DNA from: Chiloscyllium plagiosum
Lineage: Eukaryota
Reading direction: 5' to 3'
Length of the DNA stretch: 59,407 bases
Assembly: GCF_004010195.1 (NCBI RefSeq)
Contig: NC_057751.1
Location: 13,088,322-13,147,728 of the forward strand
The translations under genes and the position numbers were made by a program. Numbering within the stretch: the stretch's first letter is position 1; every line of letters begins with the position of its first letter. Below, piece after piece: positions 4,101 through 10,100 of this stretch. A model generated the notes under the pieces. It saw only the letters and a list, made by a program, of their open reading frames with translations. It did not search any database and was not told the origin of the DNA.

Positions 4101-7100
4101 TGATAACAATACTAAACATGCTATTTTGTTGCCTTACAGTGAATTCAACTCTGTTCAATGCTTCAGATTCACTGGCTTTGAATAACACTAACATTTCTTT
4201 GGTAAGTTTCAATCTCCACAATTTGACTGGTATTGTTCAATGTTTCCTTCAATCTCCATCAGCAGATGGTAGGAAAATTGGGTCATGGTTTTGCACAACA
4301 CCAGAAAATATGGGAACCCCAGGAATGACATTAGTTCAAGGCAGCTCACCATTACCTATTGAGGGGAACTAGGGATGGGCAATAAATGCTGGCCCAATTA
4401 GCAAAGCACACATCCCATAAATTATATTTTTTTTTGAAAATTCCAAACTTGCACTTCCCACCAGAGACCATCTCAGCAATGATGAGGCAGTTTTAGTTGA
4501 GAGACGGCCTAATAGAAGTATATAAAATAATGATGGTATAGGCAGAATTAGTAGTAGTTGTCTTTTCCTTAGGATGGGGGATTTCAAGACTAGGCGACAC
4601 ATTTTTAAGGTGAGAGGAGAGAGATTCACATAGGGTTCTTCATGTGTGGAATGAACTCCCTGAGGAAGTGGTGGATGTGAGTACAATTACAATGTTTAAA
4701 AGACTTCTGGATAAGTACATGAATAGGAAAGGTTTGGATGGATTAGGGCCAGGAGCAAGTAGATGGGACTAGTTTTGTTTGGGATTATGTTCAGCATGAA
4801 CCAGTTATTTCTGTGCTGTATGACCCTGAAACTAAGAACACTAATGTTCTTGCTGTTTCTGGCAACTGGGTGAAAATTTCCAGCACCCTAACTACACAAT
4901 TTCTCAATTCAAAATCAGTTCCTAAACTCTAGCACTAGAAAGGTCAGAGCAACAGACATATGTGAACACTATCCCTTCCACCCACCATGCCAACTCTGAT
5001 GTGTATAATTAATCCGTATCATTGTCATGGCAATGGCAATAATTAGCATTGGTTTGGCATCCAAATCCCTAAATAATAGCAGTTCAAAAGCTCATTCAAG
5101 GCAGCTCACCATCACCTTTCAGGATGGAAATAAGATTGTGAAATAAATGTTGGCCTTGTTCATTACTTCTACACCTTGAGAATGAATTTATAAAAACTAT
5201 GACACCTGGTAAGAGATAACACTTATTTGGGAAAGGCGAGACATCAACCGTTTGTCTCAGTTCTCTAGTTGCCTAAGTGGATTACTTAGCCGATTTGATG
5301 CTGCCAGGTGCAAATGCCCTAAATCAACATTGAAATGTTATGACACCTTTTATGTCTCAACTGGTGTTGCAAATGAACCCTTGTCATCCATGAATTTATT
5401 GTAGATTATCATGTTGAGTTATGATGTTGATAGGAACATGGCTCATGGTGATGATATCTGACCCGCCAATGAAGCCTCCCCACTTGTCTACATTTACATG
5501 TTTTATCTGCTAGAAGCACCAAGATTGTGGTATAGCCTTTTTCTGTAGAGCGCACCTTTTGCATAATATACAAGTGTTTGTATCATCAGGGAAACTGTAG
5601 TGCTCGCAATAATTACAGCTTATAACATGTCTGTTTAAAGCAACAAGAGTTTGAGTCTTTGCACAACTAGATAATGCATTATTAGGTAAAGACTTTCTTA
5701 AAGTATCTTCATTTCCTTTTCTCTTTCCTAAGTATAATGTTGTCAATACAACAGCACTGGACTGGAGTCAACTCAGCAAGAAGGAATGCCTCACATATGG
5801 GGGGAGCCTGGTTGGAAAGTCCTGCAAGTATGTTCCAGATCTAGCCTTAATGTCTTTTATCCTCTTTTTTGGGACATACTCACTGACAGTGACCCTCAAG
5901 AAATTCAAGTTTAGTCGCTACTTTCCAACCAAGGTAAGTGCTCTCCTGAAACACTTATGGGTTGAAACTTTGCAGATAGTCTGCAAGCTCAGGCAGAGCA
6001 ATAGAATTATTCCACATGTCGCAAAGAATCTTGCCAACAGCTACTGAATCCAATTTGTTGAACATTATTGAATTTGCTTCAAACATGTTTGTTGTCCATG
6101 CTCGAATAGTGGTCATAACAATTTTATTCTCCCAAGGTTTTAGAGAAGGTGCATTTCTTCAAACAAATAATGTTGAAATTCACAGTCCAGCTTCCTTTAC
6201 CTCTTTTCCCAATGGCATTTACAAAAAGAAAACTTGCCATTCTCAAGCTAAATACTGACAAAGCAGTCAAAAAGGCGGCAATATTTTCCTCCAAAAAATA
6301 AATTAAACAGTAGAGTATAAATCACAATTGCTAAAGTAAGCTATGATCTCAAACATGATTCTGAACTGATCTATGAGTGTTGTGGAAATAGAATGCAGCA
6401 GAAAGTAAGTCATGTGAACAATTGTATATGAAATGGGGTGCAAAGAATTGCCCATGGACATTTCACTAGGCAGGAATAGAGTCATAGAGTCATAGAGCTG
6501 ACAGCACGGAAACAGACCCTTCGGTCCAACTCGTCCCTGCCGACCAGATATCCTAACCCAATCTAGTCCCACCTGCCAGCACTCAGCCCATATCCCTCCA
6601 AACGCTTCCTATTCATATACTCATCAAGATGCCTTTTAAATGTTGCAATTGTACTAGCCTCCACCACTTCATCTGGCAGCCCATTCCACACACGCACCAC
6701 CCTCTGCATTAAAAAGCTGCCCCTCGGGTCTCTTTTATATCTTTCCCCTCTCAACCTAAACCTATGCCCTCTAGTTCTGGACTCCCCCTCCCTGGGGAAA
6801 AGACTTTGACTATTTACCCTATTCATGCCCCTCATGGTTTTATAAACCTCTATAAGGTCTTCCCACAGCCTCCAATGCTCCAGGGAAAACAGCCCCAGCC
6901 TATTCAACCTCTCCCTATAGCTCAAATCCTCCAACCCTGGCAATATCCTTGTAGATCTATACTGAACCCTTTCAAGTTTCACAACATCATTCTGATAGGA
7001 AGGAGACCAGAATTGCATGCAATATTCCAAAAGTGGCCTCACCAATGTCCTGTACAGCCGCAACATGACTTACCAACTCCTGTACTCAATACTCTGACTA

Positions 7101-10100
7101 GTAAAGGAAAGCATACCAGACAAATAGATCAATGGAGTGTGGAAACCAAAGCTTTTCGCATTTTAAAAGCTTCTACAAAAATCCATAAATTTCACAATTT
7201 CCATGTAGAGTTTGGTTGTGTAGTTGCTTTGCTCCTCACTAATTCCCCTTGCAGTCTATGCTCAGGCTACAGATAAGACTGTCTCCTCTCAATGCTCTAC
7301 CTGTGCTTGTGACCTTGACCCTGAAAATGTATTTCTCCTTCCTTGCATGACCTTTCTCCCATGTCCACTTATCCCTTTATTTTCCATTAGATCCGAAGCC
7401 TGATCACAGACTTTTCTACAGTAATCTCCATTCTTGTTTTCTGTGGAATCGATGCTGCTGTCGGACTGGATACACCCAAACTGCATGTCCCCAATGAAAT
7501 CAAGGTTTGAGTAGAACTTGGCCATTTAATATCTCTCATGTTGATGTACATACTTTAGAAGGCAGCTTCCTACTGTTTTTGAACCTGAAGTGTTCCTAAG
7601 TGTTGTAACATAACATTGAAGTAAATATGTTTTCTAAATGGGTTTGCCGACTTACGTTAGTTTCAGAGTCATGGGAGCCAAACCAGGAAACTTTCAATTC
7701 TTTGTCAAGGAATTTTCTCTTCTTCCACAACTTGGCTTCCCGCACAACTTAAGCCTCCTTAGAAAACTAGTGACTTTTTCGTAATCAATGAATAGACTAA
7801 GGATCTCTTGTCAAAGAGGTAGTAGTTGGTCAAGTAGGATGGCCAATCTGGATGCTACATTTTCTAGCTTGCTTGATTTTCTCAAAATTATTATTATTAA
7901 CTTATTATTAACTAAGCAGATCATTGCAGGATACAGGGACCTGAAAATGCAGGTGTCTGACTACAGCATAAAAAACACCATGTTCTAGCCCATTTCAGTT
8001 CTGAAATAGGCTTATTAGACTTGAAACGTATACTCGCTTTCTCTCTTTCCATATGCTGCCAGAGCTGCTGAGTTCCTCCAGCACTTCCTGTTTTTACTTA
8101 TAGCAGGTCTTTTGTTCACTTGAAATGTGCCAAAATATAACATACTTCCCATGATCACAATTTAAACTGGGGGGAAAAATCCTTTCTTGTTCTGCCAACA
8201 GTGGCAAACTGGATTTTACTGAAGTCCCTGTACAAGACATCAAGTGCTTCACCTCAGCCTGATAATTTGTTAAACCAATGGGATGCACAGTCAGAGCTGC
8301 CCAGGGGAGGCCAACTGAATTAGGATCTATTTTCTCTGCACACTCAACATCATAGTTATCAGAACTTGGTGTACCTGGGGAACATCATAGTTATCAGAAC
8401 TTGGTGTACCTGGGGAAGGTCTGGTTGAGTAACATTATTTGGGATGAAGTGTAACTTCTTTCCTCGAATCAACATTAAAAATACTTATTTCAATATTTCC
8501 TCATTCCTTTACTCTTTGACTTTTATTCTTTTTGTATGTCACATTTCCGTCTGGATGTTTCTACCATCTGTTCTGTTGATCTATCTTAGCTCCGGAAACT
8601 TATCAGTGACTTTTCTATCTTCACGTCTATTCTGATTTTTGTTGGGATTGATGTTCTTTTTGGACTGAACACACCAAAACTTCAAGTGCCAACTGAGCTA
8701 AAGGTAAATCTCAAGGGCTTTTCATCAGTAGAATAAATTAAATAAATGGGAAATGGTTTTAGTTGTATGCTGGTTTATGGAACTGTCCTTTTGTACCCAG
8801 GTCCCTGCTTAAAGTATTCCATCAGTAGTGAGATTAATGACCATTCAATGTTAACATAAAGATTCCACATCAATTGAATTCATCTTGATCTACTTCTTGG
8901 CAGTGTAGCAGAATGTTGCTCATAATTCAACACAATTTTACTGGCTTTTAGAATGGTTGATACTAAGGATACAAACTGGAAACTGGCCACATCGGCCCTT
9001 TTATAGAGATTGTGCTTCATGCAGATAAGTTAACTTCATGTTGCACTTAACCCTAACGCATCTTGACAAAGTTCAAGCTAGATATTATTAAGTGCTTCCA
9101 TTCCATTTTTCCTCATATATTCAAAATCAATTTATTTTAAAAATTAATTGACCTCTTATTCTGCCACACAAAGTAATTTTTCTATCTTAAAAGGGGATGT
9201 ATTATGTTTTAACATTTTATCTGGAGAATTATTTTGATCTGAGCAGAAATCATTGTGCCTTCATCTGTCTTTATGGGAGGTATCGTGGTGAAGGTACAAA
9301 GTTTCAACAGAACTTTGATGAATTTAATAAAAGTGGAAGGTGAGATAAATCACACAGTAAGAATTAAGTAACATCAGTTGGACATTTTCTTTAGCCTGAC
9401 TATTACACAGCAAGTTTCAATGCCATCGTTTTTTTCTTAACTTTAAATGAGGACAGTTAACAAACTTAATAATGTGATTAACCAAGCATTAACAAGGTTT
9501 CGTGAAGAATTGGCTTGGAATATATATTTAAACACAAAGATGTGCAACAGAGTCCTCATTTTGAAAAATATCTCAGTGTTTCAATAATCTCAGTACATCA
9601 AGAAGAGTCTTTCATGAGTTCTGTTGTTTATACGATCACTCAAACTTTAGGCTGAAGTGAATAAATTATACAATTTGTGATCACATTAGAAAAACACACA
9701 AACTAACCAAATACCCACACTTTTAAATTTTTTCTTGTAGCCAACCCGTTCAGATCGAGGCTGGTTTGTTCTTCCCTTTGGTAAAAACCCCTGGTGGATC
9801 TACCTTGCCAGTGCCTTACCTGCTCTCCTAGTAACTATATTGATCTTCATGGACCAACAAATCACAGGGGTAATTGTGAACAGGAAGGAGCACAAATTGA
9901 AGGTAGGTAATCAATTACTGTGTGCCAAGCAGGCGAGACACAGATGCTTTGGTTACATGGCAATAGTTGCTTCAGTGCAAGAAGTGTTGGAACCTCCTCA
10001 ACATTCCTTCAGGAAACTGGAAGGTTTGCAGTGTTCCAACAAGGCTGAGTTTGATGGCAATTTAAAGTTTATAATTAATACTTGGATATGCTGTTTCTGT

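What the first reader, a model, noticed from the sequence alone, without database searches (positions are those of the whole stretch)
7391..8703. Tandem duplicated TM7/EL4 exons in SLC4A5: candidate mutually exclusive exon pair
Seen: between the ...RYFPTK exon and the PTRSDRGW exon, where SLC4 genes normally have one 114-nt exon, there are two. Copy A (7391-7504) encodes [38 protein letters not shown] and copy B (8590-8703) encodes [38 protein letters not shown]. Both are phase 0-0, stop-free, with intact AG/GT, 23/38 aa identical, mostly conservative changes, many synonymous differences and no obvious flanking similarity, so the duplication is old and both copies appear constrained. Established: this segment is TM7 plus the start of extracellular loop 4, and EL4 has been implicated in electrogenicity/stoichiometry of NBCe1 versus NBCn1. 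Inference: including both would add an extra TM and break topology, so they should be spliced mutually exclusively, giving two NBCe2 isoforms that differ in the transport domain. From memory, human SLC4A5 resembles A (FCGIDA..LHVP..IK) while B resembles NBCe1 and fish sequences (RKLISDF), suggesting an ancestral pair differentially lost. I do not know of this being described for SLC4A5. The ORF track misses both exons.
Basis: partly seen in the sequence, partly recalled or inferred. Interest (0 to 1): 0.9.

Follow-up and report, generated by a model that had tools for sequence, protein, structure and literature searches.

The report
Ancient alternative TM7 exons in SLC4A5
This shark's sodium-bicarbonate transporter gene SLC4A5 carries two old, interchangeable copies of the exon for its seventh membrane helix, RNA shows either one or the other being used, and the same pair exists across jawed vertebrates although no paper I could find describes it.

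Summary
Exons A (7391-7504) and B (8590-8703) are both 114 nt, phase 0-0, open and AG/GT-bounded. They share 23/38 residues (E 6e-17) and 77/114 nt, and their flanks are unrelated.

The mutually exclusive reading is supported.
- RNA contigs of two runs join upstream exon > A > downstream exon.
- A third run holds A and B as two 171-nt contigs, exactly the size of a k=31 assembly bubble between shared flanks. Their depths (15.6 + 34.9) sum to the flank depth (51.6).
- Of 275 fetched SLC4A5 protein models, 96 carry A only, 97 B only and 79 both in tandem. They span sharks, rays, teleosts, gar, frogs, reptiles, birds and platypus.
- Ten species have separate A-only and B-only models.
- On an exon tree A and B each form one group, and A+B separate from the paralogue exons (99/93). 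The duplication arose within SLC4A5 before jawed vertebrates diverged.
- B evolves more slowly than A.

The exon encodes TM7 of the gate (scaffold) domain plus the start of the gate-core linker, not the transport core. No paper found describes the pair, but database isoforms already contain it. The functional difference is untested. The scan has noted other exon pairs of this kind, but none in SLC4A5.

The parts
5733..5933 (+). Upstream constitutive exon (end of EL3, TM6, cytoplasmic loop ...[12 protein letters not shown]); donor AAG|gtaagt
   Evidence: RNA contigs laid on 5732-5931/5933 in X1, X2, X3
5934..7390 (+). Intron U-A (1457 nt); holds an interspersed repeat at about 6480-7216 with very high depth from many unrelated contigs
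7391..7504 (+). Exon A, 114 nt, phase 0-0: A-type TM7 plus start of EL4 (invariant Cys18, His32 in 78 of 79 unique A sequences); weak donor AAG|gtttga
7505..8589 (+). Intron A-B (1085 nt); repeat fragment at about 7952-8098; perfect 35-nt tandem duplication 8346-8415; long pyrimidine-rich tract before exon B
8590..8703 (+). Exon B, 114 nt, phase 0-0: B-type TM7 plus start of EL4 (Arg-Lys start, invariant Phe11 and Val18, Gln/Ile32); donor AAG|gtaaat
8704..9740 (+). Intron B-D (1037 nt); unexplained RNA-contig depth at about 9128-9274 in X2 and X3
9741..9902 (+). Downstream constitutive exon (rest of EL4, TM8 with FMDQQIT), 162 nt, phase 0-0

Best explanation
Exons A and B are a tandem-duplicated, mutually exclusively spliced exon pair of the shark SLC4A5 (NBCe2, 'electrogenic sodium bicarbonate cotransporter 4') gene. 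One 114-nt exon encoding TM7 and the first residues of extracellular loop 4 was duplicated within the SLC4A5 lineage. This happened after that gene separated from its NBCe1/AE4-like paralogues and before cartilaginous and bony vertebrates diverged. Both copies have been kept under purifying selection since then, B more tightly than A. Each mRNA takes one copy, giving two full-length 14-TM transporters. They differ only in the last helix of the gate (dimerisation) domain and in the start of the extracellular arm that ties gate to core. Exon choice differs between samples. Shown: homology, age, conservation, single inclusion of A, and presence of both forms in RNA. Inferred: strict exclusivity, and the functional effect. 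My best guess for the effect is tuning of regulation or kinetics. Candidates are lipid (PIP2) binding at the cytoplasmic end of TM7, where B and NBCe1 have Arg-Lys and A has Arg-Ser/Ala/Thr. Another is charge or pH behaviour at the extracellular end, where A has an acidic residue plus a near-invariant His and B has Asn/Asp plus Gln/Ile. A change of substrate is unlikely, because the ion-site helices TM1, 3, 8 and 10 are untouched.
For: Homology and intact splice signals.

RNA:
- X2 record 9 (1261 nt) and X3 record 15 (2149 nt) lie contiguously on 5732-5931, 7389-7502 and 9739-9902, which is U-A-D with B skipped.
- In X1 a 1400-nt contig stops at 5933 and a 2548-nt contig starts at 9739.
- In X1, A and B each sit in a 171-nt contig, with only record positions 30-143 on the exon. 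The 28-29 letters on each side are therefore not the adjacent intron.
- computes 171 nt as the exact length of a k=31 bubble branch for U-(A|B)-D.
- Depths are 15.6 (A) + 34.9 (B) = 50.5, against 51.6 and 41.7 for the flanks.

Conservation:
- Of 275 SLC4A5-like models, 96 are A-only, 97 B-only, 79 AB tandem, 1 ABAB and 2 have neither (sources).
- Ten species have separate A-only and B-only models.
- A Logan-derived 1121-aa B-only protein from a 4186-nt contig (P0066) is an intron-free transcript in another species.

Tree (58 rows, 38 columns): A is one side of a branch at 95/90*, B at 90/81, and A+B against 13 outgroup exons at 99/93*.

Same genome: five other SLC4 loci have a single copy within +/-5 kb.

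Type-specific residues and the slower rate of B (mean pairwise identity 0.81 against 0.68).

Domain assignment. TM7 and PIP2 in AE2. EL4 and electrogenicity.
Against: No read or contig that I could inspect letter by letter shows the U-B and B-D junctions in this species. The runs are only guessed to be RNA by the tool, though cover limited to exons argues that they are. Their organism labels differ (A, B, C), so some may be close relatives.

Contigs drop rare variants, so minor A-B co-inclusion or double skipping cannot be excluded. The joint table was truncated (141 rows not shown).

Double inclusion and double skipping both keep the frame, so nothing in the sequence enforces exclusivity.

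Seventy-nine of the 275 public models include A and B in tandem, and two bat models and one grenadier model skip both. I read these as annotation artefacts but did not test that.

The tree rests on 38 columns.

No functional data exist for either isoform. The equivalence with the AE2 PIP2 site rests on the shared (Y/F)FP motif, not on a structural alignment made here.
Confidence: 0.85

Rival explanations
1. Both exons are normally included together (A then B), as in many RefSeq models, giving a protein with an extra helix. The single-exon forms would be minor.
For: Seventy-nine of 275 public models carry A and B in tandem, including every listed isoform of some teleosts. Tandem inclusion keeps the reading frame.
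Against: Contigs in X2 and X3 join A directly to the downstream exon. In X1 the flanking contigs break exactly at 5933 and 9739, and A and B form equal-length branches whose depths add up to the flank depth. A constitutive U-A-B-D transcript would assemble as one unbranched contig. The only transcript-derived homologue seen (P0066) is B-only. An extra TM helix would invert the topology of TM8-14 (inference from the 7+7 fold). Gene predictors commonly chain in-frame twin exons where RNA support is thin (my own knowledge).
Confidence: 0.05
2. Only one copy is functional in this shark. The other is a decaying pseudo-exon that is spliced in as noise.
For: Exon A has a weak donor (gtttga). In X2 and X3 only A was assembled.
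Against: Both are open and both are conserved from sharks to birds, with type-specific invariant residues. Each type forms its own group on the tree. pN is far below pS between the copies. In X1 both are present, B at about twice the depth of A.
Confidence: 0.03
3. The pair is a real either/or switch, but the two isoforms are functionally equivalent. The pair would then be kept for regulatory reasons, such as tissue-specific splicing control, and not for a difference in the protein.
For: No functional data exist. Most differences are conservative hydrophobic swaps within a scaffold helix. Therian mammals seem to manage with one type each.
Against: Fixed type-specific residues have been kept for over 400 million years: Cys18 in 79 of 79 unique A sequences against Val18 in 56 of 56 B, His32 in 78 of 79 A, Lys3 in 55 of 56 B, Phe11 in 56 of 56 B. 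The two types also evolve at different rates. Both points argue for distinct constraints on the two proteins.
Confidence: 0.07

Closest known systems
Tandem duplicated exon substitutions (homologous mutually exclusive exons) of vertebrate membrane proteins, as catalogued for human genes by Martinez-Gomez and colleagues (PMC8373072, PMC9741552; I saw search listings and abstracts, and word searches of one held supplement each)
   Same: Adjacent homologous exons of equal length and phase, ancient origin, both copies conserved, and isoforms identical apart from one homologous segment.
   Different: SLC4A5 and other SLC4A genes do not occur in the supplements held for these two papers. One likely reason is that these catalogues are of human genes, and the one hominoid SLC4A5 model seen (gibbon) has only A. 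Double inclusion here would not shift the frame.
Known SLC4 splice variation (review PMC4664831, passages read): alternative N- and C-termini, optional cassettes, and the 16-aa cassette of NBCe2 in the transmembrane domain
   Same: Same gene family and same gene. This is one more splice event that changes the transmembrane domain.
   Different: The review describes cassettes that are present or absent, and the phrase 'mutually exclusive' does not occur in it. Here a whole helix (TM7) plus the start of EL4 is exchanged for a homologous version.
RefSeq/Ensembl isoform models of SLC4A5, for example Chiloscyllium punctatum X2 (B) against X5/X6 (A), Scyliorhinus canicula X5 (B) against X6 (A), Xenopus laevis X2 (B) against X1/X3/X5 (A)
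   Same: These are the same two exons. The window's A and B are 100% identical to those of both Chiloscyllium species.
   Different: They are automatic predictions without comment, mixed with many tandem (AB) and some double-skip models. They are not a description of the switch.
EL4 swap experiments between NBCe1 and NBCn1 (Chen et al. 2011, as summarised in PMC4664831)
   Same: The exchanged exon includes the first 10-12 residues of EL4, the loop reported to decide electrogenic or electroneutral behaviour.
   Different: Those were artificial chimeras between paralogues. Here nature exchanges only the N-terminal part of EL4, together with TM7, within one gene. Whether stoichiometry changes is unknown.

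Membership tests
Tandem-duplicated mutually exclusive exon pair | Neighbouring exons are homologous to each other | tested here: met
   23/38 aa, E 6e-17; 77/114 nt
Tandem-duplicated mutually exclusive exon pair | Same length and phase, with intact splice sites compatible with the same flanking exons | tested here: met
   Both 114 nt, phase 0-0, AG...GT
Tandem-duplicated mutually exclusive exon pair | Each exon is found spliced alone between the same flanking exons | tested here: met
   A: contiguous U-A-D contigs in X2 and X3. B: 171-nt bubble contig with non-intronic flanks in X1, and B-only transcript-derived and RefSeq models in other species. The B junction letters in this species were not seen directly.
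Tandem-duplicated mutually exclusive exon pair | The two exons are not included together | tested here: inconclusive
   The graph shape and the depth sum in X1 fit exclusivity. However, contigs hide rare forms, the joint table was truncated, and 79 of 275 public models chain A and B.
Tandem-duplicated mutually exclusive exon pair | Both copies conserved across species | tested here: met
   A and B both occur in sharks, rays, teleosts, gar, frogs, reptiles, birds and platypus. The tree groups them by type.
SLC4A5 / NBCe2 | Band 3 cytoplasmic domain plus HCO3- transporter domain, with closest named relatives being SLC4A5 | tested here: met
   The hits carry PF07565 and PF00955 and are named electrogenic sodium bicarbonate cotransporter 4. 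The window's exons from 868 to 28528 map to residues 567-1134 of the Chiloscyllium model.
SLC4A5 / NBCe2 | Electrogenic Na+-coupled HCO3-/CO3(2-) transport | not testable with these tools
   Needs electrophysiology
Exclusivity by steric hindrance (intron between the twins too short) | Intron between A and B below the minimal spliceable length | tested here: not met
   The A-B intron is 1085 nt
Exclusivity by frame shift and NMD | Joint inclusion or joint skipping shifts the reading frame | tested here: not met
   114 nt = 38 codons and all boundaries are phase 0
Exclusivity by incompatible spliceosomes (U2/U12) | One of the introns carries U12-type signals | tested here: not met
   All four donors begin GT and all acceptors end AG, with U2-like pyrimidine tracts. 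U12 consensus sequences were judged by eye only.
Exclusivity by competing RNA structures | Conserved intronic docking and selector pairings | tested here: inconclusive
   Only short, imperfect inverted repeats were found. In a duplex test of five region pairs, one (U-intron against the region upstream of B) reached 3 of 200 shuffles, uncorrected. No DNA from other species was available to test conservation.

The most novel reading that the evidence does not exclude
NBCe2 of jawed vertebrates would be a two-state transporter by design. An either/or TM7/EL4 exon switch over 400 million years old would set a biophysical property, such as Na+:base stoichiometry or electrogenicity, extracellular pH sensitivity (through the near-invariant His of A), or PIP2 dependence (through the Arg-Lys of B, shared with NBCe1), in a tissue-specific way. 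Therian mammals would then have frozen opposite states, marsupials B and placentals A. If so, all functional work on mammalian NBCe2 has sampled only one half of the ancestral repertoire.
Probability: 0.2. Interest if true: 0.8.

Novelty: new member of a known kind. Interest (0 to 1): 0.55.

Why it matters
NBCe2 controls cerebrospinal-fluid pH and renal base handling, and its stoichiometry has been reported to vary with cell type (my own recollection, not checked here). A natural pair of isoforms that differ only in TM7 and the first residues of EL4 is a ready-made experiment. It bears on what the gate-domain helix and the gate-core arm contribute to an elevator-type SLC4 transporter, and on the proposed role of EL4 in electrogenicity. 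It also matters for annotation: 79 of 275 public SLC4A5 models chain both exons and so predict a 15-helix protein that is probably wrong. The apparent reciprocal retention in marsupials and placentals would be a neat case of lineage-specific resolution of an ancient splice switch.

Tried and rejected
I then used the 48-aa open frame of B and a 44-residue region of stored protein P0003 for A.

2. The look-up of sequencing runs listed no holder on record as RNA. The small-share runs X1-X3 turned out to cover exons only when laid. X5 gave nothing on the exons.

3. Looked for a third copy in the window: none.

4. Looked for RNA structures that could enforce exclusivity.
- Inverted repeats I2 (6211-6230 / 8526-8545, would loop out A) and I4 (7535-7549 / 9593-9607, would loop out B) are short and imperfect.
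- The duplex-energy test gave z -2.33 (3 of 200 shuffles) for one of five region pairs and nothing for the others.
- I do not count this as evidence.

5. Rfam scan of 5600-10000: 0 matches.

6. Literature.
- Four searches for SLC4A5 or NBCe2 with mutually exclusive exons, splice variants or tandem exon duplication found no description.
- The supplements held for PMC9741552 and PMC8373072 contain no SLC4A gene.
- The supplement of PMC9013439 could not be read, so a prediction there cannot be excluded.

7. Whether placental genomes still hold a B remnant, marsupials an A remnant, or cyclostomes one or two copies could not be tested, because no vertebrate genome other than the window's own is searchable here.

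8. Earlier scan notes contain nothing on SLC4A5 or on this place.
Full report
**The observation**

The window's + strand carries the 3' half of an SLC4A5 gene. tblastn of a Chiloscyllium punctatum model named 'electrogenic sodium bicarbonate cotransporter 4-like isoform X2' (P0025) maps its residues 567-1134 onto exons from 868 to 28528.

Between the exon ending ...[12 protein letters not shown] at 5933 and the exon beginning PTRSDRGW at 9741 lie two 114-nt open segments.
- Both are bounded by AG and GT and both are phase 0-0.
- They share 23/38 residues without gaps (BLASTP E 6e-17) and 77/114 nucleotides.
- The synonymous difference is 0.60 per site and the non-synonymous 0.23.
- The 100 nt on either side match at chance level, 36/100 and 24/100.
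- There is no third copy in the 59 kb.

**Are both exons used, and as alternatives?**

One search for sequencing runs listed no run on record as RNA. It did list several small-share holders, and I laid X1, X2, X3 and X5 on 5600-10000.

In X1-X3 cover falls on the four exons and on intronic repeats, not on unique intron. These are therefore transcript assemblies, although the tool only guesses 'RNA?'. X5 gave nothing on the exons.
- X2 record 9 (1261 nt) and X3 record 15 (2149 nt) lie contiguously on 5732-5931, 7389-7502 and 9739-9902. That is upstream exon > A > downstream exon, with B skipped.
- In X1 the assembly is broken exactly at the exon borders. A 1400-nt contig ends at 5933 and a 2548-nt contig begins at 9739.
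- In X1, A and B each sit in a contig of exactly 171 nt. Only positions 30-143 lie on the exon, so each has 28-29 further letters per side that are not the neighbouring intron.

A script shows that 171 nt is the exact length of a branch of a k=31 de Bruijn bubble, if transcripts are U-A-D and U-B-D. The variable span is 111 nt, because A and B share their last three bases, plus 2 x 30.

The contig depths are 15.6 (A) and 34.9 (B). Their sum, 50.5, compares with 51.6 and 41.7 for the flanking contigs.

A constitutive U-A-B-D transcript would give one unbranched contig. A substantial mixture with A-B junctions would cut the A and B branches short. So both exons are expressed, the pattern is that of alternatives, and the A:B ratio differs between samples.

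Limits of this evidence:
- I could not read the flank letters of the two 171-nt contigs.
- Contigs drop rare forms, and the joint table was truncated.
- The runs carry different coded organism labels.

**Other species**

Three word-indexed protein searches gave SLC4A5 models.
- B's 48-aa open frame was the query.
- The A region of a catshark model was the query.
- The B region of an opossum model was the query.

Two cluster look-ups added members.

Classified by a motif script, the 275 models are 96 A-only, 97 B-only, 79 with A followed directly by B, 1 ABAB (a mis-assembled icefish-relative model) and 2 without a match.

The tandem models show that both exons exist, in the same order and open, in many genomes:
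- sharks (Scyliorhinus, Heptranchias, Chiloscyllium, Stegostoma, Rhincodon);
- rays and skates (Mobula, Leucoraja, Rhinoraja);
- gar and many teleosts (eel, herring, shad, salmonids, catfish, Danionella, tuna, perches, pipefishes);
- a frog, turtles, lizards, a cobra, several birds and the platypus.

Ten species have separate A-only and B-only models: Scyliorhinus canicula, Chiloscyllium punctatum, Hemitrygon akajei, Xenopus laevis, Aquarana catesbeiana, Hyperolius riggenbachi, Pyxicephalus adspersus, Cyanistes caeruleus, Phasianus colchicus and Pygoscelis adeliae.

A Logan-derived protein of 1121 aa from a 4186-nt contig (P0066) is a B-only, intron-free transcript of a frog-like species.

All models seen from 10 marsupial species are B-only. 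The one hominoid model seen (gibbon, P0166) is A-only. Two bat models and one grenadier model join RYFPTK directly to PTR..., skipping both exons.

I read the tandem and double-skip models as prediction artefacts, but I did not test this.

**Age and origin**

I built a maximum-likelihood tree of 58 exon peptides: 21 A, 24 B and 13 outgroup exons from NBCe1-like, AE4-like, NBCn1/NDCBE-like and invertebrate proteins (38 columns).
- All A exons lie on one side of a branch (95/90, starred).
- All B exons lie on one side of a branch (90/81).
- A+B are set apart from all outgroups (99/93, starred).

So each type is orthologous from sharks to mammals. The duplication happened within the SLC4A5 lineage, after it split from its paralogues and before the split of cartilaginous and bony vertebrates. 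The short alignment is a caveat.

In the window's own genome, a six-frame search finds the homologous exon at five other SLC4 loci plus one duplicate contig. Each locus has a single copy within +/-5 kb. Of the 149 family representatives P0252-P0400 from the profile-free search, 50 carry the motif once, 98 do not match it, and one artefactual model repeats it.

The two NBCe1-like exons of this genome, and human NBCe1 (6CAA residues 680-716), are mosaics. They combine the RKLISDF start of B with the FCG core of A. After duplication each copy therefore kept a different part of the ancestral pattern.

**What differs**

Among 79 unique A and 56 unique B sequences, the type-specific positions are:

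| Exon position | A type | B type |
|---|---|---|
| 3 | Ala/Ser/Thr | Lys (55/56) |
| 11 | Val/Ile | Phe (56/56) |
| 18 | Cys (79/79) | Val (56/56) |
| 25 | Gly/Glu/Ser/Asp | Gly (56/56) |
| 27 | acidic (79/79) | mostly Asn |
| 32 | His (78/79) | Gln or Ile |
| 37 | Ile (74/79) | Phe or Leu |

B is the slower copy. Mean pairwise identity is 0.81 for B against 0.68 for A, and B is identical in a turtle, a lizard and a finch.

**Where it sits in the protein**

A and B align to NBCe1 residues 680-716.

The NBCe1 cryo-EM paper (PMC5834491, passages) gives these landmarks:
- Tyr674-Phe675, the YF of RYFPTK, lies in the short loop between TM6 and TM7.
- The gate domain is TMs 5-7 and 12-14.
- Helix H3 links gate and core on the extracellular side.
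- The ion pathway is lined by TMs 1, 3, 5, 8, 10 and 12.

A 2026 review (PMC13263692, passages) says the same. It adds that the flexible H2 and H3 arms permit the elevator movement of the core.

For AE2, a structure paper (PMC10810954, passages) reports three things:
- Arginines at the cytoplasmic start of TM7, just after an FFP motif, bind PIP2 at the dimer interface.
- TM7 swings toward TM1 when PIP2 is lost.
- PIP2 activates transport.

By the shared (Y/F)FP motif, exon position 2 (Arg in both types) and position 3 (Lys only in B and in NBCe1) fall at that site. This is an inference, not an alignment that I computed.

The 2015 review PMC4664831 (passages) states that swapping EL4 between NBCe1 and NBCn1 switches electrogenicity.

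**How exclusivity is achieved**

This is unresolved.
- The A-B intron is 1085 nt, so there is no steric block.
- All sites are GT-AG.
- Joint inclusion or joint skipping keeps the frame, so there is no NMD filter.
- A has a weak donor (gtttga). B has a better donor and a long pyrimidine-rich upstream tract.
- Inverted repeats and duplex tests gave nothing convincing.

Regulated choice by trans-acting factors, with protein-level selection against the 15-helix product, is my inference.

**Comparison with what is known**

This is the well-known kind 'tandem duplicated, mutually exclusive homologous exons'.
- Four full-text searches found no paper describing it for SLC4A5.
- The SLC4 review lists only alternative termini and cassettes.
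- The held supplements of two human catalogues of such events contain no SLC4A gene. One other supplement was unreadable.
- On the other hand, RefSeq and Ensembl isoform models already contain the alternatives.
- Earlier notes of this scan hold other exon pairs of this kind on other DNA but nothing on SLC4A5.

**Verdict**

The finding is real and ancient, and the mutually exclusive reading is well supported. The kind is ordinary, but the case appears undescribed and concerns a mechanistically interesting part of a medically relevant transporter. The function of the switch is open.

Noticed in passing
window 9128-9274: RNA contigs of X2 and X3 (depth 6.1 and 27.6, about half the gene's depth in X3) lie on this intronic stretch between exon B and the downstream exon. 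X1 has none. The sequence has possible AG/GT borders but no similarity to SLC4. It could be a cryptic or poison exon, or a repeat.
   Followed up: partly
window 6480-7216 and 7952-8098: Interspersed repeats in the introns draw enormous summed depth (up to about 10^6) from thousands of unrelated contigs at 90-95% likeness in all four runs. An ORF on the minus strand at 6563-7069 (168 aa) looks like a retroelement remnant by eye.
   Followed up: no
window 8346-8415: A perfect 35-nt tandem duplication (2 x AACATCATAGTTATCAGAACTTGGTGTACCTGGGG) lies in the A-B intron, about 175 nt upstream of exon B.
   Followed up: no
public SLC4A5 protein models (P0003-P0251, P0402-P0427): Seventy-nine of 275 models chain exons A and B in tandem, and three models (two bats, one grenadier) skip both. 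These are probably systematic mis-annotations of this gene.
   Followed up: partly
G000:C5:2518542-2518646 and G000:C73556:2732-2836: The same paralogous SLC4 exon (identical score and extent) appears on a large contig and on a very small one in the window's genome, probably an uncollapsed haplotig.
   Followed up: no
window 7483-7488 (inside exon A): The codons for Leu-His-Val (ctg cat gtc) that carry the near-invariant His of the A type spell TGCATG, the Rbfox-type splicing motif (recalled from memory). This is possibly coincidence.
   Followed up: no
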